Origin: a virus
Reading direction: 5' to 3' (one strand)
Virus record (IMG/VR): IMGVR_UViG_3300020048_000058
DNA: 64,000 bases
The position numbers were made by a program, and so were the translations under genes. The notes under the pieces are model-generated. The model ran no database searches and was not told the DNA's origin. It was given only the letters and a program-made list of their open reading frames with translations. Shown here in pieces: positions 2,089-60,263 of the stretch; position 1 is the first letter of the stretch, and every line of letters starts with the position of its first letter.

Positions 2089-4443
2089 ATGCCTATTGTT
2101 TCCCGTCGATTGTTTAAAAATAACATTGTCAAAAACCCTCCTAGCCTTCCAGTTCCGATAAAACTGGGATCATTAACTGTTACAAAGAGTTTCCAAGATC
2201 ATCCCAGTGCCTCAATTACCTATGAAGGGATTTTAGAAGAGGATATTAGCAGTTACGAACAGGTTTATGAACCTTCTAGGAGTACAAGAATCAGTATAGA
2301 CGGGATTCCATTTAGAGTCGCTCCCGATGGAGGCTATAGCTATGAAAGAACTGGATATTTATATAAAGGAACCAAAAAAATAAATGTTTATACTGTCTCA
2401 ATCAACCTAGAAGGATGGTGGAAGGTTTATTGTTCACGGTCGGTGAAAATTAAGCCTTTGGTTAATATGGCTACAGGGACATTATCAGCGAGTCGGTTGG
2501 CATCCAAAGCGGGTGTCAATCTGTCTGGCGGGTTTGACATCTTCCTTGATGAAGTTGGTGAAGACTCCATGATGTCTCTGGATGATGTATTGGAGGAATA
2601 TGCCTTAGTAGAGGGCTGTTACGTCCATTATGGGCAGTTTGTTGCGTTAAAAAACATCAATTCCGGCTCCTCTTATAGTTTTAGTTGGGAAGAACAACTA
2701 TCGGACGGTTCTAACCAGCTAGGAGTTGCACCCTATTACAATGGAGCCGCGCTAACCTGGACTCCAAGGGAAAGCAACAAAGAGCAAGTTGACCCGAATG
2801 CACCCCCCGAATTCAAGGAAAAAGAACCCGAATTTAAAACTGAATATGAATATGACCAAGACGTAACAAACCCACCAAGAGGAACAGCTATTTTAAGGAG
2901 TTTAGACAGCAACTTAGACCAATCTGGCCCTAAGAAAGTTAGGAGGACAACCTACTCAATTGACGGACAAACAGACAGAGAAGTGATTGAAACATGGGGA
3001 TTTGCTTATTACTTAAAAGATTTTCAAGAGACTCCAGATGGTTTTATGATATTAAGGCCTTGGCTATATTGGACATTAATCGAATTTCAGGAAACTCGTT
3101 ATTATTATCAGGAGGTGGTTTCACCGATTTACACACTTGCTAAACCTCAAAACACACAAGAAATAAAGTATGAATTAGTTGTGCATCCAGATTATGAAGA
3201 TTATGTAGAAAGTGTGGGGTTTGATGGGATTAAGTTTAAGGCTTCAAAGGCTAAATATTTAACAAGTATTGTCACGTCTGGATGGAAATTAAGCCGATTT
3301 CAACAAGAAGAAATAGGAGGAGACACCGATACAAGTCAGATGGATGTAGATGATAATGGGAATATAATAGATCCTTGGTGGAAAGTAGTTAAATTTCAAA
3401 AAATAAACAGGCAAGATGTAACCAACTTTTATCTAAAATCAATGCGCGCAGATTACGAACAGGATGCAGTTCCCTATAGCATTGAGTGGGTTTTTTGGGA
3501 TGAAATGGACGAGCAGATGCAGCGAATGATGTTCTCAAAAGTTACACCCCCAAGAGAGGGTTCTAATCAAAGGTTGAAAGTGGGCTTAATTACTGCCGAC
3601 ATGGATTTTGTAGAGCCAATGCTGGCGTGGACAGAATCTAGGCAAGCGTCTTCGATTGCAACAATGGCTCACCCTGACTCAACCGACGAAGATCCCCTCC
3701 CCGCTTTGGTAACGGGAGAAGAAAGCTATTATCAATCAATTTGGACTAAAAAGAACGACGAATATTCAACCGAGAAAATAGTGGAGTTAACCGCATCGGG
3801 AGCCGGGTTTGTGGATGGGGTTGAGAATATTCGATATCGAGAGATTCAGGGTAGGCCACCAGAAGCTCAATACAGGAAAACAACATGGGAGCAACAACAA
3901 CCAAAAGCCACAACAACACTTACAATAACAAAGAGCACCGTAAAACGATATTTTGTCTACTCTGATTCAATCCCTAAATGGGCATCAGAAGGGGGAGAAA
4001 GTCTAAGTTTTGGGGCTGCCTCTACACTTAGTCAAGCAGAAAAAGCAGCTAAAACTCAACTTACAATTAACACCCTTCAAAGTACCCAAGAAACCCGGAC
4101 AGTTAGCTGGCACTTCCCGAACATTGAGGGGGGAGATTTTTGCACTTTCAGTGGGGATAGATTTCGGGGGAGATTTAGGGTGTTGTCGGCTTCTTATACC
4201 CTGGAATATGACGGAAGCCAAAATGCCTATGGACTAGATCCAATCTGCAAAACGGACGGAACAAAGTTGACACTGGGATTGTGGGACAGTCGCTCTATTC
4301 GTGTTGAGACAAGAAAAGATATTGTTCCGTCTAACGAAGGTTCAGATAACAACCAAGGAGAAGATCCAAAAGTAGACAATAATGCCACTATAATTACTTT
4401 AGGAGGGGTTTTGCCCTCAACTGTCCCCGGTCGGAGAAATTAA
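2089..4443 (+). CDS. large virion-associated protein (784 aa), function unknown
   Basis: Uninterrupted 2.35-kb ORF in the structural gene block downstream of the terminase. Confidence 0.65.
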   Translation: MPIVSRRLFKNNIVKNPPSLPVPIKLGSLTVTKSFQDHPSASITYEGILEEDISSYEQVYEPSRSTRISIDGIPFRVAPDGGYSYERTGYLYKGTKKINVYTVSINLEGWWKVYCSRSVKIKPLVNMATGTLSASRLASKAGVNLSGGFDIFLDEVGEDSMMSLDDVLEEYALVEGCYVHYGQFVALKNINSGSSYSFSWEEQLSDGSNQLGVAPYYNGAALTWTPRESNKEQVDPNAPPEFKEKEPEFKTEYEYDQDVTNPPRGTAILRSLDSNLDQSGPKKVRRTTYSIDGQTDREVIETWGFAYYLKDFQETPDGFMILRPWLYWTLIEFQETRYYYQEVVSPIYTLAKPQNTQEIKYELVVHPDYEDYVESVGFDGIKFKASKAKYLTSIVTSGWKLSRFQQEEIGGDTDTSQMDVDDNGNIIDPWWKVVKFQKINRQDVTNFYLKSMRADYEQDAVPYSIEWVFWDEMDEQMQRMMFSKVTPPREGSNQRLKVGLITADMDFVEPMLAWTESRQASSIATMAHPDSTDEDPLPALVTGEESYYQSIWTKKNDEYSTEKIVELTASGAGFVDGVENIRYREIQGRPPEAQYRKTTWEQQQPKATTTLTITKSTVKRYFVYSDSIPKWASEGGESLSFGAASTLSQAEKAAKTQLTINTLQSTQETRTVSWHFPNIEGGDFCTFSGDRFRGRFRVLSASYTLEYDGSQNAYGLDPICKTDGTKLTLGLWDSRSIRVETRKDIVPSNEGSDNNQGEDPKVDNNATIITLGGVLPSTVPGRRN

Positions 4444-4619: not shown

Positions 4620-4813
4620 ATCAAATCGCATCTCAGACTTTAAGTAGATTAAATGGTCGTAACAAATCAGTGTTAATTGGCAAGGCTTACCCCCTAGGGA
4701 ATAGTGGATCTGTATTCTCTGGGATGGGTAAAAGTTTTGTAGCCAAAGGGGTGGTTACTGGTAAGGCGATCGCCTTTAAGCACAATGGTAAATGGCAAGT
4801 TGTACAAGGTTAA
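4607..4813 (+). CDS. hypothetical protein (68 aa)
   Basis: Co-oriented ORF. Its last codons form the first unit of the 16-bp tandem repeat. Confidence 0.4.
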   Translation: MATVNQIASQTLSRLNGRNKSVLIGKAYPLGNSGSVFSGMGKSFVAKGVVTGKAIAFKHNGKWQVVQG

Positions 4814-4976
4814 ATGAGTACAAGGTTAAATGAGTACAAGGTTAAATGAGTACAAGGTTGAATGAGTACAAGGTTGAATGAGTACAAGGTTAAATGAGTA
4901 CAAGGTTAAATGAGTACAAGGTTAAATGAGTACAAGGTTGAATGAGTACAAGGTTGAATGAGTACAAGGTTAAAAT
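4802..4976. repeat. 16-bp tandem repeat GTACAAGGTT(A/G)AATGA, 10 full units plus a partial 11th, with an 80-bp higher-order period
   Basis: Read directly. Units start at 4802, 4818, ... 4946, and 4962 is partial. The variant pattern is A A A G G A A A G G A. Confidence 0.97.
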
Positions 4977-7265: not shown

Positions 7266-8960
7266 ATGGGAATGTTTTCGGATATTGATTATTCTTTGAT
7301 TGTTTTGCAATTAGAGAAGGCAATGGCTAATGGTGTGGCTACCTTGGATTCAAATACTAAGGTTCCTAAAGCTCAGATTAGTTTAACCGCTTCTGATGTT
7401 GGTGCGATCGCGTCTACTGGCAACGAAGTTTTAACAAGTTTAAACGCCGCGTCTGGCACAATTTCATCTGGGCTTTTACCGTCTTATGTTGATGATGTCC
7501 TGAGTTATACAAACCTTGCCGGGTTCCCAGGTACTGGCGAAGCTGGAAAGATTTACGTTGCAGAAGATTCCAATAAAGTTTACCGATGGTCGGGTTCTGT
7601 TTATGTTGAGATATCGAGTTCTGCTACTGCGGGAGAGGCTTTAAAACTAACCACGCCACGGACAATTGAAGCGACGGGAGATGCAAGTTATTCGGCATCT
7701 TTTGATGGTTCAACCAATGTTACAAGTGCGATAACACTGGCAACGGTCAATAATAATACTGGTTCTTTCGGTAGCGCTAGTTCAATTCCTGCTATTACTG
7801 TCAATGCTAAGGGTCAAGTAACTGCGGTTTCAACTAACAGTATCGGGAATGAATTAATTGCATTACAATCTTTAGCTGACACCCCAGGATTTTTAAAGAA
7901 AACTGGTAACGGGACTTATTCTATTGATGTTAATTCCTATCTTTCATTGGCAGGTGGGACTATCACGGGGGACTTGATTTCAACTAGCGCAACGGCATCA
8001 ACATCAACAACTACAGGGGCTTTAAGGGTCGCTAGTTTAGGGGTTACGGGTGCTATTTTTGCTGGTACTGTTAGTGCCAATTCTTACAATTTGATTCCTA
8101 TTTGGAGAGGAGAGGGAAACATAGGCACAAATACAGTAACAGGAGTTAGTGCGCTTTTGTCCAATACAACAGGAGGGAATTTATCTGCCTTTGGAGTTAA
8201 TTCGCTTCTGTCCAATACCACAGGATGGAATTTATCTGCCTTTGGAGTTAATTCGCTTCTGTCCAATACCACAGGATGGAATTTATCTGCCTTTGGAGCT
8301 TTTTCGCTTCAGTCCAATACAACAGGAGGGAATTTATCTGCTTTTGGAGTTAGTGCCGGACGCTTTATTTCCGATGGCGTTACGGGGCTAACAATATCAA
8401 ATAACTCTTGTTTCTTCGGCATGAACACCAAAGGAACCCAGAACGCAACCAATGAGAACGTATTTGGCTACAACGCCACCGGAAACGGCTCAAACACCGT
8501 AACAATTGGTGATTCAAATATTACCAATACCTACCTAAGAGGTGTGATATCAACTAATTCCACAACACCTTCAACCTCTCCCACCACGGGAGCTAGTGTA
8601 ATTCCTGGGGGTCAAGGGGTTCAGGGAAATCAATATGTTGGGGGTTTTAGTTCTTTGGGTGGGGACGCAAGTCATCCAGGGATTAAGATTAAGGTGCTAA
8701 CGGGAACTACGGCAGCAACACAAGGGGGGGGTGTAGGAATAGCTCATGGAATAGCTGATATAAACAAAATAATTTCAGTTAATCTTTGGGTGAATACAGG
8801 TCAGGGGTTGGGGTTATTTGCACCCCCTAATTATACAAATGGAGCCATCCAATATAATTTTATGCTTTATGGGGGTCATATTTCTGTAGAAAATCACCCA
8901 TCAAACAGTTACAACCTTTTGTCAAAACCAGTCACAATAACAATAATTTACACGGCATAA
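7266..8960 (+). CDS. tail fibre protein
   Basis: N-terminal ATLDSNTKVPKAQISL and FPGTGEAGKIYVAEDSNKVYRWSGSVYVEIS motifs are typical of phage tail fibres. Also contains Gly/Ser/Thr-rich repeats. Confidence 0.75.
   Translation: MGMFSDIDYSLIVLQLEKAMANGVATLDSNTKVPKAQISLTASDVGAIASTGNEVLTSLNAASGTISSGLLPSYVDDVLSYTNLAGFPGTGEAGKIYVAEDSNKVYRWSGSVYVEISSSATAGEALKLTTPRTIEATGDASYSASFDGSTNVTSAITLATVNNNTGSFGSASSIPAITVNAKGQVTAVSTNSIGNELIALQSLADTPGFLKKTGNGTYSIDVNSYLSLAGGTITGDLISTSATASTSTTTGALRVASLGVTGAIFAGTVSANSYNLIPIWRGEGNIGTNTVTGVSALLSNTTGGNLSAFGVNSLLSNTTGWNLSAFGVNSLLSNTTGWNLSAFGAFSLQSNTTGGNLSAFGVSAGRFISDGVTGLTISNNSCFFGMNTKGTQNATNENVFGYNATGNGSNTVTIGDSNITNTYLRGVISTNSTTPSTSPTTGASVIPGGQGVQGNQYVGGFSSLGGDASHPGIKIKVLTGTTAATQGGGVGIAHGIADINKIISVNLWVNTGQGLGLFAPPNYTNGAIQYNFMLYGGHISVENHPSNSYNLLSKPVTITIIYTA
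8160..8363 (+). repeat. 4 x 51-bp in-frame tandem repeat inside the tail fibre gene (SNTTG(G/W)NLSAFG(V/A)(N/F)SL(L/Q))
   Basis: Units start at 8160, 8211, 8262 and 8313. Units 2 and 3 are nearly identical. Confidence 0.9.
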
Positions 8961-18460: not shown

Positions 18461-18616
18461 ATGTCAACCCCTAAATCAAAAAAACTTTTCAACCGCCCAA
18501 CCGTTGTCAGGGTGAGGCTTTCAGAAGTTGAGAGGGAGAGGATAGAGGCGATCGCATCTTCAAGAAATCTATCCCTCTCGGAATTGATAAGGTATTGGAT
18601 CAATAATAGAGGATGA
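18461..18616 (+). CDS. small ribbon-helix-helix-like protein (51 aa, not in the ORF track)
   Basis: RPTVVRVRLSEVERERIEAIASSRNLSLSELIRYW fits the beta-strand/helix/helix pattern of RHH/MobC-like proteins. Confidence 0.4.
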   Translation: MSTPKSKKLFNRPTVVRVRLSEVERERIEAIASSRNLSLSELIRYWINNRG

Positions 18617-19416: not shown

Positions 19417-20184
19417 ATTTCAATCCATAAAATAGGCAATCGTCTATTGCGGGATGGATACTTAAATCATCATCAACTAAACAGGGATGTTTCAATCCAT
19501 AAAATAGGCAATCGTCTATTGCGGGTTTAAACGGGGAACCCAATTGTTTTTAGTCAGGATGTTTCAATCCATAAAATAGGCAATCGTCTATTGCGGGTTT
19601 TGCTAAGTCGGAATGGTAATTAGCATCAAAATCGTTTCAATCCATAAAATAGGCAATCGTCTATTGCGGGTTCCCTTTACTTTTAAACTGATAATAGCTA
19701 TCAGGGTTTCAATCCATAAAATAGGCAATCGTCTATTGCGGGAAAAAGCATACGATACAGCTATAAAAGAAGGTTATCTATTAGTTTCAATCCATAAAAT
19801 AGGCAATCGTCTATTGCGGGAAAACCCCTGCATAGGCTTTTCTACCATAGAACGGTTTCAATCCATAAAATAGGCAATCGTCTATTGCGAGATCAAAGCC
19901 ATTAAGAATAGGATAAAAAACATCCAAGTTTCAATCCATAAAATAGGCAATCGTCTATTGCGGGTTTGGGTCTATCTGTTGGGTTACGACCGGGGGATTA
20001 GTGTTTCAATCCATAAAATAGGCAATCGTCTATTGCGGGTTCCGTTTACTCTGGGAACCATTCAAGGCATCATTGTTTCAATCCATAAAATAGGCAATCG
20101 TCTATTGCGGGTTTATAACCATGTTCTGGGGATGATGCCAGAAGAAGGTTTCAATCCATAAAATAGGCAATCGTCTATTGCGGG
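19417..20184. CRISPR. CRISPR array: 11 x 37-bp repeats GTTTCAATCCATAAAATAGGCAATCGTCTATTGCGGG, with 10 spacers of 34-41 bp
   Basis: Repeat starts are 19417, 19489, 19561, 19634, 19706, 19784, 19855, 19928, 20003, 20075 and 20148. Repeat 1 has A for G at position 1. Repeat 7 ends GCGAG. All spacers are unique. Confidence 0.97.
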
Positions 20185-20203
20185 AGCTTAATCCGCAATT
20201 GTT

Positions 20204-21877
20204 TCAGGCGTTTCTATCGAAATCACCTAAGCTCATTCGATTTATTATAGCATGAGTTTTGGCGGTTTCGGCAACTAAAAAATCGTGAACCCCGTTTTTA
20301 AACAAATCATCTGGAATTGTTATGGTGTCTGACTTTTTGGTTTTTTTCTTGGTTGCCTTTTTAGAAGAGCTAGGGGTTGCCGAATTTTTATTAATCAGGA
20401 ATTTATACCAGAAATTATCGGACAATTCCACACCTTGATTGATTGCCATTTGAGCTAAACCTTTTAACTTAATGTTCTGTCCTGAGTTGACATCACGAGC
20501 AACGGTATAACCACAATTAGAGCATTTGTGAGTGCGTTGAGATAGCTTTTTCTTCTCTTGATGTCCACACTTCGCACAACATAAAGTAGTTCCCCAATTA
20601 TCAACCCGAATCACTAATTTTCCGTGTTCCTTTGCTTTGGTTTCTAATAAATCAATAGCTTGACCAATAGCTACGTCACTCCCTGTTCTGTTACTTCCTC
20701 GTTTGCGTTTTTGATTATTTTTATCGTAGATAACTGTACCATTTTCGGCAACCACTGGATTTCCTTCTGTGTCTAATTTTGCCTTGGCTTTAGCTTTTCG
20801 GTAGACGTTGGCGGGTTTGTAATCCTCAACAAAAATCACGTCAAACCAATTGATTAAATTGGTAGAATGCCAGTGATTGAATGATCGGCGGTGACGGGCG
20901 ATTTTCTCATGAAGTTTAGCAATTTTATTATTGAGTTTCTCCCAATTCTTAGTTTTCCCCTCGTTCATTCGATACTTGCGAGATAATTGTTGCTGCATTT
21001 TCCTTAGACGTTTTAGCGATCGCTTTAAAGGTTGTGCAGCCTCAATAGTATGACCATTATCCAATGCCATAACAAACTGATGTCCGGGGTCAATTCCACA
21101 ACATAACCCTGTCTTCTTGGCTTGCTTGACAGGGACGGACGCAGTTAATTGTACATACCACCCCGACGCTTTTTTGCAAATTTTCATCGGGTTAAAATCG
21201 CAACCATACCACCGTTTATCAAATCCAATTACCTCGATATAACCCAATTTTGGAATATTGATCTTACTGTCCTTAACACCTAGATCCTTAGCGTTGTAAT
21301 GGATTAAAGTCATTACCTTATCTTTAGCTGTTTTGAAACGTGGACGGCTGTGGCGACCCGCTAGAAATCCCTCCCAAGCCTTTGATAGTTCATGCGCTAC
21401 ACCTTGAATGAATTTTGCCGGGCAATCGGTGAAATTAACTTTTCGCTCCTCACCTCTAACTAAATAAGTCACAATCCGATCCTTGTGGTGCTGATGTCCA
21501 AATACCTTTAGGAACCCGTATAGTACCGACTTTTTAGAATCCAGTGAGTCAATAATAGGGCTATTTTCATCAATGGCGACGGGATGGATTAACCCCCTTT
21601 TCTTCTCGACTCGCTCAATCCCCATCTTCCAATCTGGGATCTCAATTCGTACCCATTGCTTGAGCTTGCGGTCGTATCGTTGCAGGGGAGTTGCAGGGAC
21701 GTTAGACTTTGACAGTTTATCGTAAGGGTTCCACTCGTTAAATTCCTCTATCAGTCCTAATGAGCGATTCCAAACCCACTTACAAACTAGCATCCAATCT
21801 TCTAGGGTTCGCTCTTGTTCTGAAGATAGAATGAGTTTAAACTCCTTTGTTCGCACATTTTCGCTAAAATTAGACAT
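20204..21877 (-). CDS. cas12: TnpB-like RuvC nuclease adjacent to the CRISPR array: candidate compact type V (Cas12-class) effector, 557 aa
   Basis: N-terminal TnpB-type RTKEFKLILSSEQERTLEDWMLVCKWVWNRSL. RuvC-I is CCGIDPGHQF, RuvC-II is VIFVEDYKP and RuvC-III is ARDVNSGQNI. Zn ribbon CCAKCGH...HKCSNCGY. The array begins 19 bp after the stop codon. Confidence 0.8.
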   Translation of the reverse strand: MSNFSENVRTKEFKLILSSEQERTLEDWMLVCKWVWNRSLGLIEEFNEWNPYDKLSKSNVPATPLQRYDRKLKQWVRIEIPDWKMGIERVEKKRGLIHPVAIDENSPIIDSLDSKKSVLYGFLKVFGHQHHKDRIVTYLVRGEERKVNFTDCPAKFIQGVAHELSKAWEGFLAGRHSRPRFKTAKDKVMTLIHYNAKDLGVKDSKINIPKLGYIEVIGFDKRWYGCDFNPMKICKKASGWYVQLTASVPVKQAKKTGLCCGIDPGHQFVMALDNGHTIEAAQPLKRSLKRLRKMQQQLSRKYRMNEGKTKNWEKLNNKIAKLHEKIARHRRSFNHWHSTNLINWFDVIFVEDYKPANVYRKAKAKAKLDTEGNPVVAENGTVIYDKNNQKRKRGSNRTGSDVAIGQAIDLLETKAKEHGKLVIRVDNWGTTLCCAKCGHQEKKKLSQRTHKCSNCGYTVARDVNSGQNIKLKGLAQMAINQGVELSDNFWYKFLINKNSATPSSSKKATKKKTKKSDTITIPDDLFKNGVHDFLVAETAKTHAIINRMSLGDFDRNA

Positions 21878-21905
21878 ACCTATTTAAGAAATTGAAACGT
21901 ATGTA

Positions 21906-21934
21906 TTGACATTTCCATTATATACAACTATAGT
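21906..21934 (+). promoter_or_regulatory. sigma70-type promoter TTGACA-17 nt-TATAGT, firing away from the cas12-like gene
   Basis: -35 at 21906..21911 and -10 at 21929..21934, read directly. Confidence 0.6.
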
Positions 21935-21940
21935 GGAATC

Positions 21941-22087
21941 ACCGACGTTTAGATCGGCAAGCCAAAAGCTGCCCTTGGAGCCGAAAGGATTAACGATTAG
22001 GCGATGAAGAGGGAATATTCTCTAGCCAGATATGGTTAGCAATTTTAAAAATAGGTAATCAACTTAAAGGGGCTCCGGCCCCTTTTT
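21941..22087 (+). ncRNA. candidate tracrRNA / small non-coding RNA of about 147 nt, bounded by a promoter and a terminator
   Basis: No ORF longer than 10 codons. AAAATAGGTAATC (22048..22060) can pair over 13 bp (one G-U) with minus-sense repeat positions 13-25 (GAUUGCCUAUUUU). It ends in GGGGCUCCGGCCCCUUUUU. Confidence 0.4.
22069..22087 (+). terminator. intrinsic terminator GGGGCTCCGGCCCC followed by TTTTT (probably bidirectional; it also follows minus-strand gene 22100..22534)
   Basis: GC-rich 5-6 bp stem, a T5 run on plus, TTTAAGTT on minus. Confidence 0.65.
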
Positions 22088-58483: not shown

Positions 58484-59050
58484 ATGTTGTTAACCAACCG
58501 CTTCAATCAAATCGACTCCCAAATTAATCAAGTCGAGTCTGATATTGCCAAACTTCAAAACCAATTATCAGAACTGCAACAACACCGCCAACACTTGCAA
58601 GCTGTAGAACAAGCCTGTGAGAGCGCCCTAACCCAAACTGAAACCGCTTTGATGATGTTGAATCATATTGACCCTGATTGTGTCCAAACCTTTAAGACTG
58701 CGATGTTGGCTAAATTTGACGGTGCTATTCCACAACTCCCAGAGGCTACCGACACCGACACACCGGAATCAGAACCTATTACACCAACAGAACCCGATAC
58801 CGATAATACAGACACCATCACGGTTGACCCTATCCTAGAATCACCGGAAATCGACACTACACCGGAATCAGAACCCCGTACACTTGCATCTGTTGGGTGT
58901 GCAGTGTTTAACCCTTCTACTGCCGATTTTGACAACCTCAAAGCATGGGTACGGAGTCACCAGGGGGATGATAAAACCCGACTACAAGGCACTTTGACCC
59001 GACGCACTACATGGGAATACGCCGCCAAATTGATTCTTGAAAGTCTGTAA
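58484..59050 (+). CDS. coiled-coil protein with an acidic Thr/Pro/Asp/Glu-rich linker
   Basis: DIAKLQNQLSELQQHRQHLQAVEQ followed by TDTDTPESEPITPTEPDTDNTDT. Confidence 0.55.
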   Translation: MLLTNRFNQIDSQINQVESDIAKLQNQLSELQQHRQHLQAVEQACESALTQTETALMMLNHIDPDCVQTFKTAMLAKFDGAIPQLPEATDTDTPESEPITPTEPDTDNTDTITVDPILESPEIDTTPESEPRTLASVGCAVFNPSTADFDNLKAWVRSHQGDDKTRLQGTLTRRTTWEYAAKLILESL

Positions 59051-59156
59051 ACCTCAAAACCTAATCAGATAGGGACTTCCAACCTATCTGTAAGACTGAT
59101 AAGTAAAACATAATAGTAAAATGTTTTACCTATAAGTAAGATTAATGTAAAACTAC

Positions 59157-59185
59157 TTGACAACTGTAAGACTTTTAGTTATACT
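59157..59185 (+). promoter_or_regulatory. cassette promoter P4: TTGACA-17 nt-TATACT
   Basis: Read directly. Confidence 0.65.
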
Positions 59186-59293
59186 GTTTTACATAGGGGT
59201 CAAGAAAACACCTCTTAAAACAACAGAGTCAGAAGGGCTACTTTCTCAGGGACACCCAACCGACTCCACTACATCCAAAAAGGACTTAATGAC

Positions 59294-59668
59294 ATGGTAG
59301 CTCAAATCACGACCGCGATCACGACTGAAATCATCTCAACCTACGTTTCAACCTTTGACGGCCTCCAAATCGACACGATTCAAATGACTTACCCGGACGG
59401 CTCGGTTGAAATCCGTTATGGATGGATGGAAGAAGACTTCTACACAGGTGAAACAACCTACTATATCCGAACAAAATCCGGCGCCGTTCTGAATAGCAAC
59501 TGGAAGACCACCCGTAATAACAAGTGGTTGGTTAGTTACAAATCAATTAAACTCACCGCTAAACAAACTGAAATTATCAATCATAATTCTGCCCTCGAAG
59601 TGTTAGCAAGTCCTGAGAATTACAGTCACGCCGAGTACCTCAAAGCAAAGGCTGATCTGGGATTCTAA
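59294..59668 (+). CDS. hypothetical protein
   Basis: 124-aa ORF. Confidence 0.55.
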   Translation: MVAQITTAITTEIISTYVSTFDGLQIDTIQMTYPDGSVEIRYGWMEEDFYTGETTYYIRTKSGAVLNSNWKTTRNNKWLVSYKSIKLTAKQTEIINHNSALEVLASPENYSHAEYLKAKADLGF

Positions 59669-59679
59669 AAACAATAACC

Positions 59680-59698
59680 GGGGGTGAAATATCCCCCC
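59680..59698. repeat. stem-loop GGGGGTGAAATATCCCCCC (copy 3 of 3)
   Basis: Read directly. Confidence 0.8.
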
Positions 59699-59735
59699 TT
59701 CTGGTAACATTTCAAAACACGTCTAAGGTAAAACA

Positions 59736-60263
59736 ATGCAATCACTTCAAAGCCCTACAACTGCCACTAATACAGCCGTCCTACCTAACACACCTCGCGA
59801 TTTACGGATAGCACTAGCCTCCGGTGAAACGTTAGGAATTAACCGACCTTTCCTTGATATCCAACGCGATTTATACCGCAAAGTCCCCGATAGTTATTAT
59901 GCTTTCAAAAGTAAAGGGGGAACTCAAATTATCTACCTCTCATGGGAATTATTAAGCTGCTGCATGGATTATATTACCCCCGGATGGGAGAAGTCCATCA
60001 GTCTAAACCAGATTGGGGAGCGGGTAACGGTTGAATGTACCGTAACCATCCATAGTTCCGACGGGTCATTCAAACGTACAGCTACAGGGAGCGACACTCT
60101 ACTCGACGAGGGATATGGGGGGCCTGTAGTTGATGCAGAAAGTCAGGCATTTCGCCGGGCGCTCGCCAACTTTGGATTCTGTAGTTATCTCTGGGATAAA
60201 GAAATCAGTAATGCCCTGATAAAACGGCTCAAAGGTCAAACCCCGCCCACTTTTTGGGGTTAG
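59736..60263 (+). CDS. Rad52/Sak-type single-strand annealing protein
   Basis: IIYLSWELL...VTVECTVTIH...AESQAFRRALANFGFCSYLW resembles the Rad52/Sak (DUF1071-like) core. Confidence 0.55.
   Translation: MQSLQSPTTATNTAVLPNTPRDLRIALASGETLGINRPFLDIQRDLYRKVPDSYYAFKSKGGTQIIYLSWELLSCCMDYITPGWEKSISLNQIGERVTVECTVTIHSSDGSFKRTATGSDTLLDEGYGGPVVDAESQAFRRALANFGFCSYLWDKEISNALIKRLKGQTPPTFWG

What the first reader, a model, noticed from the sequence alone, without database searches (positions are those of the whole stretch)
21906..22087. Candidate tracrRNA gene divergent from the effector, defined by a near-consensus promoter, a 13-nt anti-repeat and an intrinsic terminator
Seen directly: TTGACA (21906..21911), a 17-nt spacer and TATAGT (21929..21934) lie on the plus strand and point away from the cas12-like gene. 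About 130 nt downstream is GGGGCTCCGGCCCC followed by TTTTT (22069..22087). The interval has no ORF longer than 10 codons. Eight nt before the terminator stem, AAAATAGGTAATC (22048..22060) is complementary to positions 13-25 of the minus-sense repeat (GAUUGCCUAUUUU). The pairing spans 13 contiguous bp including one G-U. A discrete, strongly signalled RNA of about 147 nt with an anti-repeat next to a tracr-dependent-type effector is the expected signature of a tracrRNA. However, 13 bp is short, and in known Cas12 tracrRNAs the anti-repeat position varies.
Basis: partly seen in the sequence, partly recalled or inferred. Interest (0 to 1): 0.7.

Follow-up and report, generated by a model that had tools for sequence, protein, structure and literature searches.

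The report
tracrRNA gene of a phage Cas12
The flagged 150-base stretch very probably encodes the helper RNA (tracrRNA) that a small virus-borne CRISPR nuclease needs to use its guide RNAs; this fits a recently described relative, but such an RNA was reported missing from this type of cyanophage system.

Summary
The promoter, the 13-nt complementarity and the hairpin plus T-run are all at the stated coordinates. On its own the 13-bp match means little: about 14 such runs are expected by chance per 64 kb. Comparative evidence settles the question. The 557-aa TnpB/Cas12-like effector (20204-21877, minus) has relatives at 38-99% identity in at least 9 lineages. All but the 45% lineage (L036/37) carry the same RNA gene divergently upstream; there it lies upstream on the effector strand, still antisense to the repeat. 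The RNA has five helices. Sixteen of its 31 pairs show compensatory changes, and its G-U pairs work only on the window + strand. Its 3' tail changes together with each lineage's own CRISPR repeat (mean duplex energy -22 kcal/mol for own repeat, -11 for others). A second contact also covaries: GUUU in the first hairpin loop (21947-21950) faces the repeat's last four bases, AAAC. This matches the pseudoknot solved for Cas12p ("Cas12 hacker"), the closest solved relative. Verdict: a real tracrRNA gene, about 147 nt (21941-22087, +), and a new member of a known kind. An unexplained extra is a second anti-repeat in the effector's 5'UTR that also covaries with the repeat.

The parts
21906..21934 (+). 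tracrRNA promoter: -35 TTGACA (21906-21911), 17-nt spacer, -10 TATAGT (21929-21934).
   Evidence: 11/12 match. TTGACA is kept in all close lineages. In L013-L017 a 14-nt segment is inverted, yet a -10 box remains on both strands. Ten sites of at least 11/12 in the window against 2.0 expected.
21941..22087 (+). Predicted tracrRNA, about 147 nt. The TSS is inferred at A21941, 7 nt after the -10 box. Helices: P1 21942-45/21954-57; P2 21960-62/21968-70; P3 21972-76/22009-13; P4 21980-82/22000-02; P5 22022-28/22033-39.
   Evidence: RNAalifold consensus with 31 pairs, 16 compensatory. Controls: 97.1% of cells paired against 29-53% when slid, and 0/500 shuffles reach the observed covariation. Covariance model R1 scores 176.9 bits here and finds homologues in L034, L035, L022, L037 and L033.
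21947..21950 (+). GUUU in the P1 loop. Predicted pseudoknot partner (R:AR-1) of the last four repeat bases, AAAC.
   Evidence: Invariant in alignment A2. It is CUUU where repeats end AAAG (L034, L035) and CUUC where they end GAAG (L022). It corresponds to G7-U10 of the Cas12p tracrRNA.
22040..22060 (+). Anti-repeat (R:AR-2). Six bp to repeat nt 28-33, a 2x2 internal loop, then 13 bp to repeat nt 13-25. It is part of a degenerate in-register repeat copy, 22036-22072.
   Evidence: It covaries with each lineage's own repeat in 9 lineages. It is unpaired in the consensus fold.
22069..22087 (+). Intrinsic terminator: GGGGCTCCGGCCCC followed by TTTTT. An A-run precedes it, so it may act in both directions.
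   Evidence: Other lineages carry unrelated hairpins with T-runs at the same place.
21878..21897 (-). B element: a second anti-repeat (GTTTCAATTTCTTAAATAGG) in the effector 5'UTR, one base (T) before the ATG. It is antisense to the last 20 nt of the crRNA repeat.
   Evidence: It sits at the same place in L015, L018, L028, L033, L034 and L035 and, by eye, in L027, matching each lineage's own repeat where that repeat could be compared. Its function is unknown.
21917..21922 (-). Candidate -10 box (TATAAT) of the effector promoter. It lies inside the spacer of the tracrRNA promoter, so the two divergent promoters interlock.
   Evidence: Read directly. The TATAAT is conserved in L013-L018. No good -35 box was found. 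Inference only.
20204..21877 (-). Effector: a 557-aa TnpB/Cas12-like RuvC nuclease, V-U2/C2c8-like and related to Cas12p.
   Evidence: Pfam OrfB_IS605 plus Cas12f1-like_TNB. NCBIfam V_cas_c2c8 at 302 bits, best hit but below the 350 cut-off. The family profile hits Cas12p 9JFS at E = 9e-56. D263/E351/D462 and the zinc-finger cysteines are intact.
19418..20184 (-). CRISPR array of 11 repeats of 37 nt. crRNA sense: CCCGCAATAGACGATTGCCTATTTTATGGATTGAAAC. The leader is at the effector end.
   Evidence: Polarity comes from spacer turnover at the effector-proximal end and a shared degenerate distal repeat.

Best explanation
Window 21941-22087 (+) is the tracrRNA gene of a cyanophage-borne compact type V CRISPR system. 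The system is V-U2/C2c8-like and a relative of Cas12p ('Cas12 hacker').

Shown here:
- A sigma-70-type promoter and an intrinsic terminator bracket a conserved RNA of about 147 nt on the strand opposite the effector.
- The RNA has five helices supported by compensatory changes.
- Its single-stranded 3' tail (22040-22060) is complementary to nt 13-33 of the minus-sense repeat, and it changes together with the repeat in every lineage.
- GUUU in the first hairpin loop faces the repeat's terminal AAAC and also covaries with it.
- crRNAs are minus-sense.

Inferred:
- Transcription starts near A21941.
- The tracrRNA pairs with each repeat of the pre-crRNA through both contacts: duplex R:AR-2 plus pseudoknot R:AR-1.
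- A host RNase or the effector trims the pre-crRNA.
- The 557-aa RuvC nuclease binds the tracrRNA:crRNA scaffold and cuts double-stranded DNA next to a 5'-GTN motif.
- The likely targets are competing related phages.
For: 1. Elements present at the stated coordinates.
2. The intergenic RNA gene is conserved in IMG/VR, Logan, ENA, JGI and NCBI loci whose effectors are 38-99% identical.
3. RNAalifold gives 31 pairs, 16 with double changes. Controls: 0/500 shuffles reach the observed covariation, and slid structures pair only 29-53% of cells against 97%.
4. Strand test: 99.6% of non-terminator cells pair on the + strand against 94.1% on the opposite strand, a difference of 15 G-U cells.
5. Anti-repeat against own repeat averages -22.1 kcal/mol, against other lineages' repeats -10.7. 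Pairing always stops at repeat nt 33.
6. In L036/37 the whole cassette lies on the effector strand but is still antisense to the repeat.
7. Terminator hairpins differ in sequence but occupy the same position.
8. Pseudoknot covariation: AAAC:GUUU, AAAG:CUUU, GAAG:CUUC.
9. The Cas12p structure and paper describe a tracrRNA with G7-U10 pairing to AAAC and a 37-nt repeat.
10. Array polarity: effector-proximal spacers differ among 99%-identical loci, while the distal spacer and the degenerate last repeat are shared.
11. The two partial protospacers whose PAM-proximal end matches carry 5' GTT and GTG.
Against: - No expression data are available, so the transcript, its ends and its processing are all inferred.
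- Within this window alone the 13-bp match is at chance level, and the MFE fold of the single sequence is not exceptional (z = -1.56).
- The close lineages are related, so some covariation counts are inherited rather than independent.
- Because the anti-repeat is itself a degenerate repeat copy, recombination with the array could contribute to its co-variation with the repeat.
- Covariance-model hits in L033 and L037 are marginal (E about 0.1).
- No hit was found in cyanophage CL131.
- The PAM evidence rests on two imperfect matches.
- The effector scores below NCBI's C2c8 cut-off.
- By single-sequence search the effector does not reach E = 1e-10 against Cas12p.
Confidence: 0.88

Rival explanations
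1. The segment is an orphan degenerate repeat left by array rearrangement. Under this view the conserved intergenic sequence is simply the effector's upstream regulatory region or leader, read on the minus strand, and no trans-acting RNA is made.
For: 22036-22072 is an in-register degenerate repeat copy, 22/37 identical. A second partial copy (B) sits next to the effector ATG. The 13-bp match is at chance level. The minus-strand fold also contains the terminator hairpin.
Against: Compensatory changes define helices whose G-U pairs work only on the + strand. The promoter and terminator are oriented for a + strand RNA and are maintained with different sequences. In L036/37 the cassette is inverted relative to the effector, which a cis-leader could not tolerate. 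The minus-strand fold has z = -0.29.
Confidence: 0.05
2. The array is transcribed on the plus strand. The RNA would then be a sense, crRNA-like solo guide: a degenerate repeat plus a short 'spacer', like a scaRNA or a cas-regulating RNA, and not a tracrRNA.
For: On the plus strand the repeat ends in a hairpin (GCAATCGTCTATTGC), reminiscent of Cas12a-type 5' handles. The CL131 authors raised the same idea for their V-U2 array.
Against: New spacers sit at the effector end and the degenerate repeat at the far end. Repeats end in ATTGAAAC in effector sense, as in Cas12p, where AAAC abuts the guide. The pseudoknot and anti-repeat covariation only make sense for minus-sense crRNA. A 5' GTN motif flanks the effector-sense protospacers. 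The putative 'spacer' would be the terminator itself.
Confidence: 0.03
3. The RNA is real, but it acts mainly as a regulator of the effector or of the neighbouring operon, for example through promoter interference from the interlocked divergent promoters. Under this view it is not an obligatory guide-scaffold component.
For: The effector's candidate -10 box lies inside the tracrRNA promoter spacer. The B element in the effector leader has the same sense as the anti-repeat. The terminator could act in both directions.
Against: The scaffold is homologous to RNAs that lie in the omega-RNA position in more distant relatives (L022). It also shares the stem-1 pseudoknot of the Cas12p guide scaffold. 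Regulation and a scaffold role are not mutually exclusive.
Confidence: 0.04

Closest known systems
tracrRNA of Cas12p / 'Cas12 hacker' (phage-encoded miniature Cas12; bioRxiv 10.1101/2025.01.20.633832; PDB 9JFS, 9JG3)
   Same: The effector is collinear and homologous at profile level (E = 9e-56). Both are phage-borne and have a 37-nt repeat ending in AAAC. Both tracrRNAs carry GUUU at nt 7-10 in the stem-1 loop, which forms a pseudoknot with AAAC. Both have a separate repeat:anti-repeat duplex. The PAM hint (GTN) also agrees.
   Different: The effector here is shorter (557 aa) and too diverged for a single-sequence match at E = 1e-10. The predicted tracrRNA is about 147 nt against 185 nt. Its genomic position relative to the effector in Cas12p loci could not be read from the text held. 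TrxA dependence was not tested. No experiment exists for this clade.
Type V-U2 (C2c8) loci, e.g. cyanophage vB_AphaS-CL131 (PMC6293099)
   Same: C2c8 is the best NCBIfam family. The setting is a cyanophage or cyanobacterium. The locus is minimal: effector plus array, with no cas1/cas2. The CL131 effector is 30% identical.
   Different: The CL131 authors found no tracrRNA and could not orient their array, and a review table lists V-U2 as tracr-less. Here a tracrRNA gene is evident. In CL131 and L022 the scaffold-like sequence appears to sit between the effector and the array, not upstream. The model found nothing in CL131.
TnpB omega-RNA (IS200/IS605, e.g. ISDra2; PDB 8H1J, 8EXA)
   Same: The effector is a TnpB-family protein. 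According to the Cas12p paper, the scaffold stems resemble omega-RNA stems. In distant relatives the scaffold overlaps the 3' end of the effector gene.
   Different: Here the scaffold is a separate gene with its own promoter on the other side of the effector. It carries no guide, and it must pair in trans with array-derived crRNAs.
Cas12k (V-K) and Cas12f/Cas12n tracrRNAs
   Same: All are compact TnpB-derived effectors that need a tracrRNA. Their tracrRNAs form a pseudoknot with the 3' end of the repeat (statement). Cas12k is cyanobacterial and has a GTN PAM.
   Different: The effector families differ (weak PDB hits). Cas12k is nuclease-dead and Tn7-associated. From my own knowledge, those tracrRNA genes lie between the effector and the array.
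Type II tracrRNA (Cas9)
   Same: It is a trans-encoded RNA that is in effect a degenerate repeat transcribed antisense. It is often divergent from cas9 and ends in a terminator. (Established knowledge.)
   Different: The effector and the scaffold are unrelated. Type II has no pseudoknot contact with the repeat end. Its crRNA orientation is spacer-repeat rather than repeat-spacer.

Membership tests
tracrRNA (functional class) | Encoded next to a CRISPR array and effector as its own transcription unit | tested here: met
   An 11/12 promoter and a hairpin plus T-run bracket the RNA, 29 nt from the effector start. Both signals are maintained in relatives with different sequences.
tracrRNA (functional class) | An anti-repeat complementary to the crRNA-sense repeat that co-evolves with it | tested here: met
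   About 19 bp in the window. Own against cross duplex energies are -22.1 against -10.7 kcal/mol across 9 lineages. crRNA sense is established by array polarity.
tracrRNA (functional class) | Expressed, bound by the effector and required for crRNA maturation or interference | not testable with these tools
   No transcriptome or biochemical data are available.
Cas12p ('Cas12 hacker') guide RNA | Pseudoknot between the last four repeat nt (AAAC) and UUUG/GUUU at nt 7-10 in the tracrRNA stem-1 loop | tested here: met
   GUUU at 21947-21950 equals nt 7-10 from the inferred TSS, lies in the P1 loop and is invariant. It covaries with AAAG and GAAG repeat ends. The feature is described.
Cas12p ('Cas12 hacker') guide RNA | Effector belongs to the Cas12p protein family | tested here: inconclusive
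   The family profile hits 9JFS at E = 9e-56 over three collinear segments. The single sequence does not reach 1e-10.
Cas12p ('Cas12 hacker') guide RNA | 5'-GTN PAM | tested here: inconclusive
   Only two imperfect protospacers have matching PAM-proximal ends: GTT and GTG. No exact protospacers were found.
Cas12p ('Cas12 hacker') guide RNA | Activation by host thioredoxin TrxA | not tested
   This would need structure prediction of the complex or biochemistry.
Type V-U2 (C2c8) | Effector passes NCBIfam NF038192 (V_cas_c2c8) | tested here: not met
   It is the best-scoring family, but at 302 bits against a cut-off of 350. Relatives P0014 and P0032 are named C2c8 by NCBI.
Type V-U2 (C2c8) | Minimal locus: TnpB-like effector plus adjacent array, no adaptation genes, cyanobacterial or cyanophage host | tested here: met
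   The neighbours are phage genes, and the flank resembles Planktothrix phage PaV-LD.
TnpB omega-RNA | Scaffold overlaps the 3' end of the nuclease gene on the same strand and is fused to its guide | tested here: not met
   Here the scaffold is upstream, on the opposite strand, and ends in a terminator with no guide. The omega-like position is seen only in distant relative L022.
Any Rfam family | Match to a curated covariance model | tested here: not met
   Nothing at 21.9-22.1 kb with E up to 1.

The most novel reading that the evidence does not exclude
The locus may carry a built-in feedback circuit. The effector mRNA leader contains a tracrRNA mimic, the B element (21878-21897): an anti-repeat that covaries with the repeat in the seven lineages scored (L015, L018, L028, L033, L034, L035 and the window). 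crRNA repeats, with or without the effector, would then pair across the ribosome-binding site and start codon and throttle effector synthesis. In addition, the tracrRNA and effector promoters interlock, so RNA polymerase can use only one at a time. That would be a new way for a minimal, phage-borne CRISPR system to balance its nuclease, tracrRNA and crRNA. The lineages also appear to record an omega-RNA scaffold moving from the 3' end of the gene to an independent upstream gene.
Probability: 0.3. Interest if true: 0.7.

Novelty: new member of a known kind. Interest (0 to 1): 0.5.

Why it matters
Type V-U2-like systems in cyanophages have been described as tracr-less, unorientable and possibly non-functional (PMC6293099; table in PMC11641405). 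This locus and its relatives show a complete guide-RNA set: array polarity, a tracrRNA with two covarying contacts, and an intact RuvC triad. That makes a 557-aa nuclease directly testable, because an sgRNA can now be designed. It extends the Cas12p RNA architecture to a wider, cyanophage-associated clade. The different positions and orientations of the scaffold gene among lineages give a natural series for the question of how omega-RNAs split into tracrRNA plus crRNA. The spacers point to phage-against-phage targeting.

Tried and rejected
- Rfam scan of 17-24 kb: nothing relevant.
- RNAduplex scan of the locus with the repeat: the candidate scores -25.4 kcal/mol, but chance sites reach -22 to -30, so the scan does not discriminate.
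- Single-sequence folds are unremarkable.
- Megablast of the locus against GenBank phages matched only the neighbouring methylase region of PaV-LD. My first guess that the window was Nostoc phage N-1 was therefore dropped.
- Protospacer hunt: 46 concatenated spacers against GenBank phages gave no match. Two exact-pattern scans of IMG/VR returned only the arrays themselves. PAM evidence therefore stays thin.
- Search for an upstream anti-repeat in the 31-33% relatives L021-L023: none convincing. Their scaffold seems to lie 3' of the effector instead.
- Covariance model on cyanophage CL131: no credible hit.
- I considered and rejected three readings, for the reasons given under the rival explanations: plus-sense crRNAs, an orphan-repeat relic, and a small protein. 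The 33-aa and 35-aa ORFs start outside the transcript or lie on the other strand.

Full report
**Locus.** The window carries a CRISPR array of 11 repeats of 37 nt at 19418-20184. Twenty bases away lies the stop codon of a 557-aa minus-strand ORF (20204-21877). The ORF has OrfB_IS605, Cas12f1-like TNB and HTH_OrfB domains. The neighbours are phage genes: ThyX, a C5 methylase and a DnaB helicase. The flank resembles Planktothrix phage PaV-LD. The finding lies in the 222-nt gap between the effector start (21877) and the end of the next minus-strand ORF (22100).

**Observation.** Every element is at the stated coordinates.
- The promoter matches 11/12. Sites this good are five-fold enriched in the window: 10 observed against 2.0 +/- 1.4 expected.
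- The hairpin plus T-run is stable at -16.3 kcal/mol, z = -3.4.
- The 13-bp pairing is exact but not significant by itself. About 14 such runs are expected per 64 kb and 11 are present. An RNAduplex scan finds equally strong chance sites.
- The complementarity extends further than reported: 6 bp, a 2x2 loop, then 13 bp, over 22040-22060.
- The whole of 22036-22072 is a degenerate, in-register copy of the repeat, 22/37 identical.
- Two mechanical ORFs of 33 and 35 aa overlap the interval. Neither fits inside the transcript.

**Orientation of the crRNAs.** Several IMG/VR contigs carry effectors 99% identical to this one. In them the spacers next to the effector differ. The far-end spacer and a degenerate last repeat (...GAAAT) are shared. 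Polarised acquisition therefore puts the leader at the effector's 3' end. crRNAs are transcribed with the effector, which is minus-sense in the window, and repeats end in ATTGAAAC next to the spacer.

**Comparative test of the RNA gene.**
- Effector relatives at 74-99% identity were retrieved with their flanks: L001-L020 and L027-L032. So were relatives at 38-45%: L033-L037.
- The upstream intergenic sequence is conserved in all but L036/37, from the terminator to the promoter.
- An 11-sequence alignment in tracrRNA sense (A2) gives a consensus of five helices plus the terminator. Of its 31 pairs, 16 show changes on both sides.
- In the controls, no shuffle out of 500 reaches the observed covariation. 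Sliding the partners drops pairing from 97% to 29-53%.
- Fifteen G-U cells outside the terminator would be A-C on the other strand: 99.6% of cells pair on the + strand against 94.1%. The RNA is therefore read on the window + strand.
- The terminator hairpin is replaced by unrelated hairpins at the same position. TTGACA is kept. In L013-L017 a 14-nt promoter segment is inverted, yet -10 boxes remain in both directions.
- A covariance model built from A2 finds the RNA at the expected place in L034 (E = 2.5e-10) and L035 (1e-5). The hits in L037 and L033 are marginal.

**Anti-repeat covariation.** Each lineage's 3' tail matches its own repeat. Examples:
- Window: GATTACCTATTTTTAAAATTG against GATTGCCTATTTTATGGATTG.
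- L028: GCCTATCATTAATTG against GCCTATCAGGAATTG.
- L030: TTTTTGCCTGTTAGTAATTG against TTTTTGCCTGTTAGGAATTG.
- L033, L034, L035 and L036 carry quite different sequences that again match their own repeats.

RNAduplex energies average -22.1 kcal/mol for own pairs and -10.7 for cross pairs. Pairing always stops at repeat nt 33, which leaves AAAC free. In L036/37 the whole cassette lies on the effector strand: promoter, scaffold, anti-repeat and terminator. It is still antisense to the repeat. That is what an independent trans-acting gene predicts, and a cis leader does not.

**Link to a characterised system.**
- NCBIfam's best family is C2c8 (type V-U2), at 302 bits, below the 350 cut-off.
- The family profile's best solved relative is Cas12p, the 'Cas12 hacker' (9JFS, E = 9e-56, collinear), ahead of ISDra2 TnpB.
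- The Cas12p preprint describes a phage-encoded 500-700-aa nuclease with a 185-nt tracrRNA, a 37-nt repeat and a 5'-GTN PAM. It also describes a pseudoknot between the repeat's last four bases, AAAC, and tracrRNA G7-U10 in the stem-1 loop.
- With the TSS at A21941, nt 7-10 of the window RNA are GUUU (21947-21950). They lie in the P1 loop and are invariant in A2.
- Lineages whose repeats end in AAAG (L034, L035) have CUUU there. L022, whose repeats end in GAAG, has CUUC.
- The two partial protospacers in this window whose PAM-proximal ends match have 5' GTT and GTG.
- The RuvC triad D263/E351/D462 and the zinc-finger cysteines are intact.

**Mechanism.** The best-supported reading is as follows.
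- A tracrRNA of about 147 nt is made from its own promoter.
- It pairs with pre-crRNA repeats through the 3' anti-repeat and the P1-loop pseudoknot.
- Together with the crRNA it scaffolds the 557-aa nuclease for PAM-dependent DNA cleavage.

The gene's signals, structure, strand, both covarying contacts and the crRNA sense are shown here. The transcript ends, the processing, the protein binding, the PAM and the targets are inferred.

**What is new and what is not.** A tracrRNA for a Cas12p-like effector is expected after 2025. For V-U2-type cyanophage loci, however, the literature held here reports no tracrRNA and an unorientable array. The scaffold's position also varies among lineages:
- divergent and upstream in this clade;
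- upstream on the same strand in L036/37;
- at the effector's 3' end, the omega-RNA position, in L022 and apparently in CL131.

**Unexplained extra.** A second anti-repeat, B (21878-21897, minus strand), ends one base before the effector ATG. It is antisense to the last 20 nt of the repeat, including AAAC. It recurs at the same place, matching the local repeat, in L015, L018, L028, L033, L034 and L035. A similar element is visible by eye in L027, whose repeat is cut off by the contig end. The effector's candidate -10 box lies inside the tracrRNA promoter's spacer. Together these features suggest feedback on effector expression. This was not tested.

**Limits.** There are no expression data. 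The close lineages are not independent. The anti-repeat is itself repeat-derived, so recombination could add to the apparent co-variation. The PAM evidence is thin. The effector's formal placement relative to Cas12p and C2c8 is unresolved.

Noticed in passing
window 21878-21897 (minus strand), ending one base before the effector ATG at 21877: B element: GTTTCAATTTCTTAAATAGG, antisense to the last 20 nt of the crRNA repeat. As RNA it pairs at 18 of 20 positions. It sits in the predicted effector 5'UTR. It recurs at the same place, matching each lineage's own repeat, in L015, L018, L028 (two copies), L033, L034 and L035, and by eye in L027. L030-32 carry a direct-orientation degenerate repeat there instead. 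It may be a tracrRNA mimic for autoregulation.
   Followed up: partly
window 21906-21934 (+) and 21917-21922 (-): The tracrRNA promoter and the effector's candidate -10 box (TATAAT on the minus strand) interlock. In L013-L017 the 14-nt segment TATAGTTGTATATA is inverted, and a -10 box remains on both strands.
   Followed up: partly
window about 58940-59940 (ORFs 59294-59668 and 59736-60263, +): Spacers from arrays of related phages (L008, L013) match this region imperfectly: 29-31 nt cores and 30/34. One of the window's own spacers targets the homologous site of a variant on the other strand. This suggests phage-against-phage targeting. The 5' flanks are GTT and GTG where the PAM-proximal end matches.
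   Followed up: partly
window 19418-20203 and loci L001-L012: Loci with 99%-identical effectors carry different effector-proximal spacers, yet no cas1/cas2 lies near the locus. Spacer uptake must therefore use adaptation proteins supplied in trans, presumably by the host.
   Followed up: no
window 20185-20210; L022 6441-6516; L040 (CL131) about 3900-4030: The effector stop codon sits inside CTGAAAC, which resembles the repeat's 3' end. A conserved leader of about 17-20 nt follows. In distant relatives the scaffold-like RNA lies at the 3' end of the effector gene on the same strand, the omega-RNA position. In CL131 a sequence ending GAGTTGGCAAG (the repeat's 3' end) precedes the array.
   Followed up: partly
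protein alignment A1, column of window residue E351: The RuvC-II glutamate column is glycine in P0007, P0008, P0009 and P0011, the 40-45% clade that includes L033 and L036/37. This could be a local misalignment or an altered active site.
   Followed up: no
whole window: There are ten near-consensus sigma-70-type promoters (at least 11/12), against about 2 expected. Examples are at 18467 (-), 56899, 57053 and 59157 (+). They look like a set of strong host-type phage promoters.
   Followed up: no
window 4802-4974 and 8142-8352: Two unrelated tandem repeats: a 16-nt unit x 10.8 copies at 97% identity, and a 51-nt unit x 4.1 copies at 91%.
   Followed up: no
window 22069-22087: The tracrRNA terminator is preceded by an A-run and lies 13 nt past the stop of the upstream minus-strand ORF (22100). 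It may terminate both convergent transcripts.
   Followed up: no
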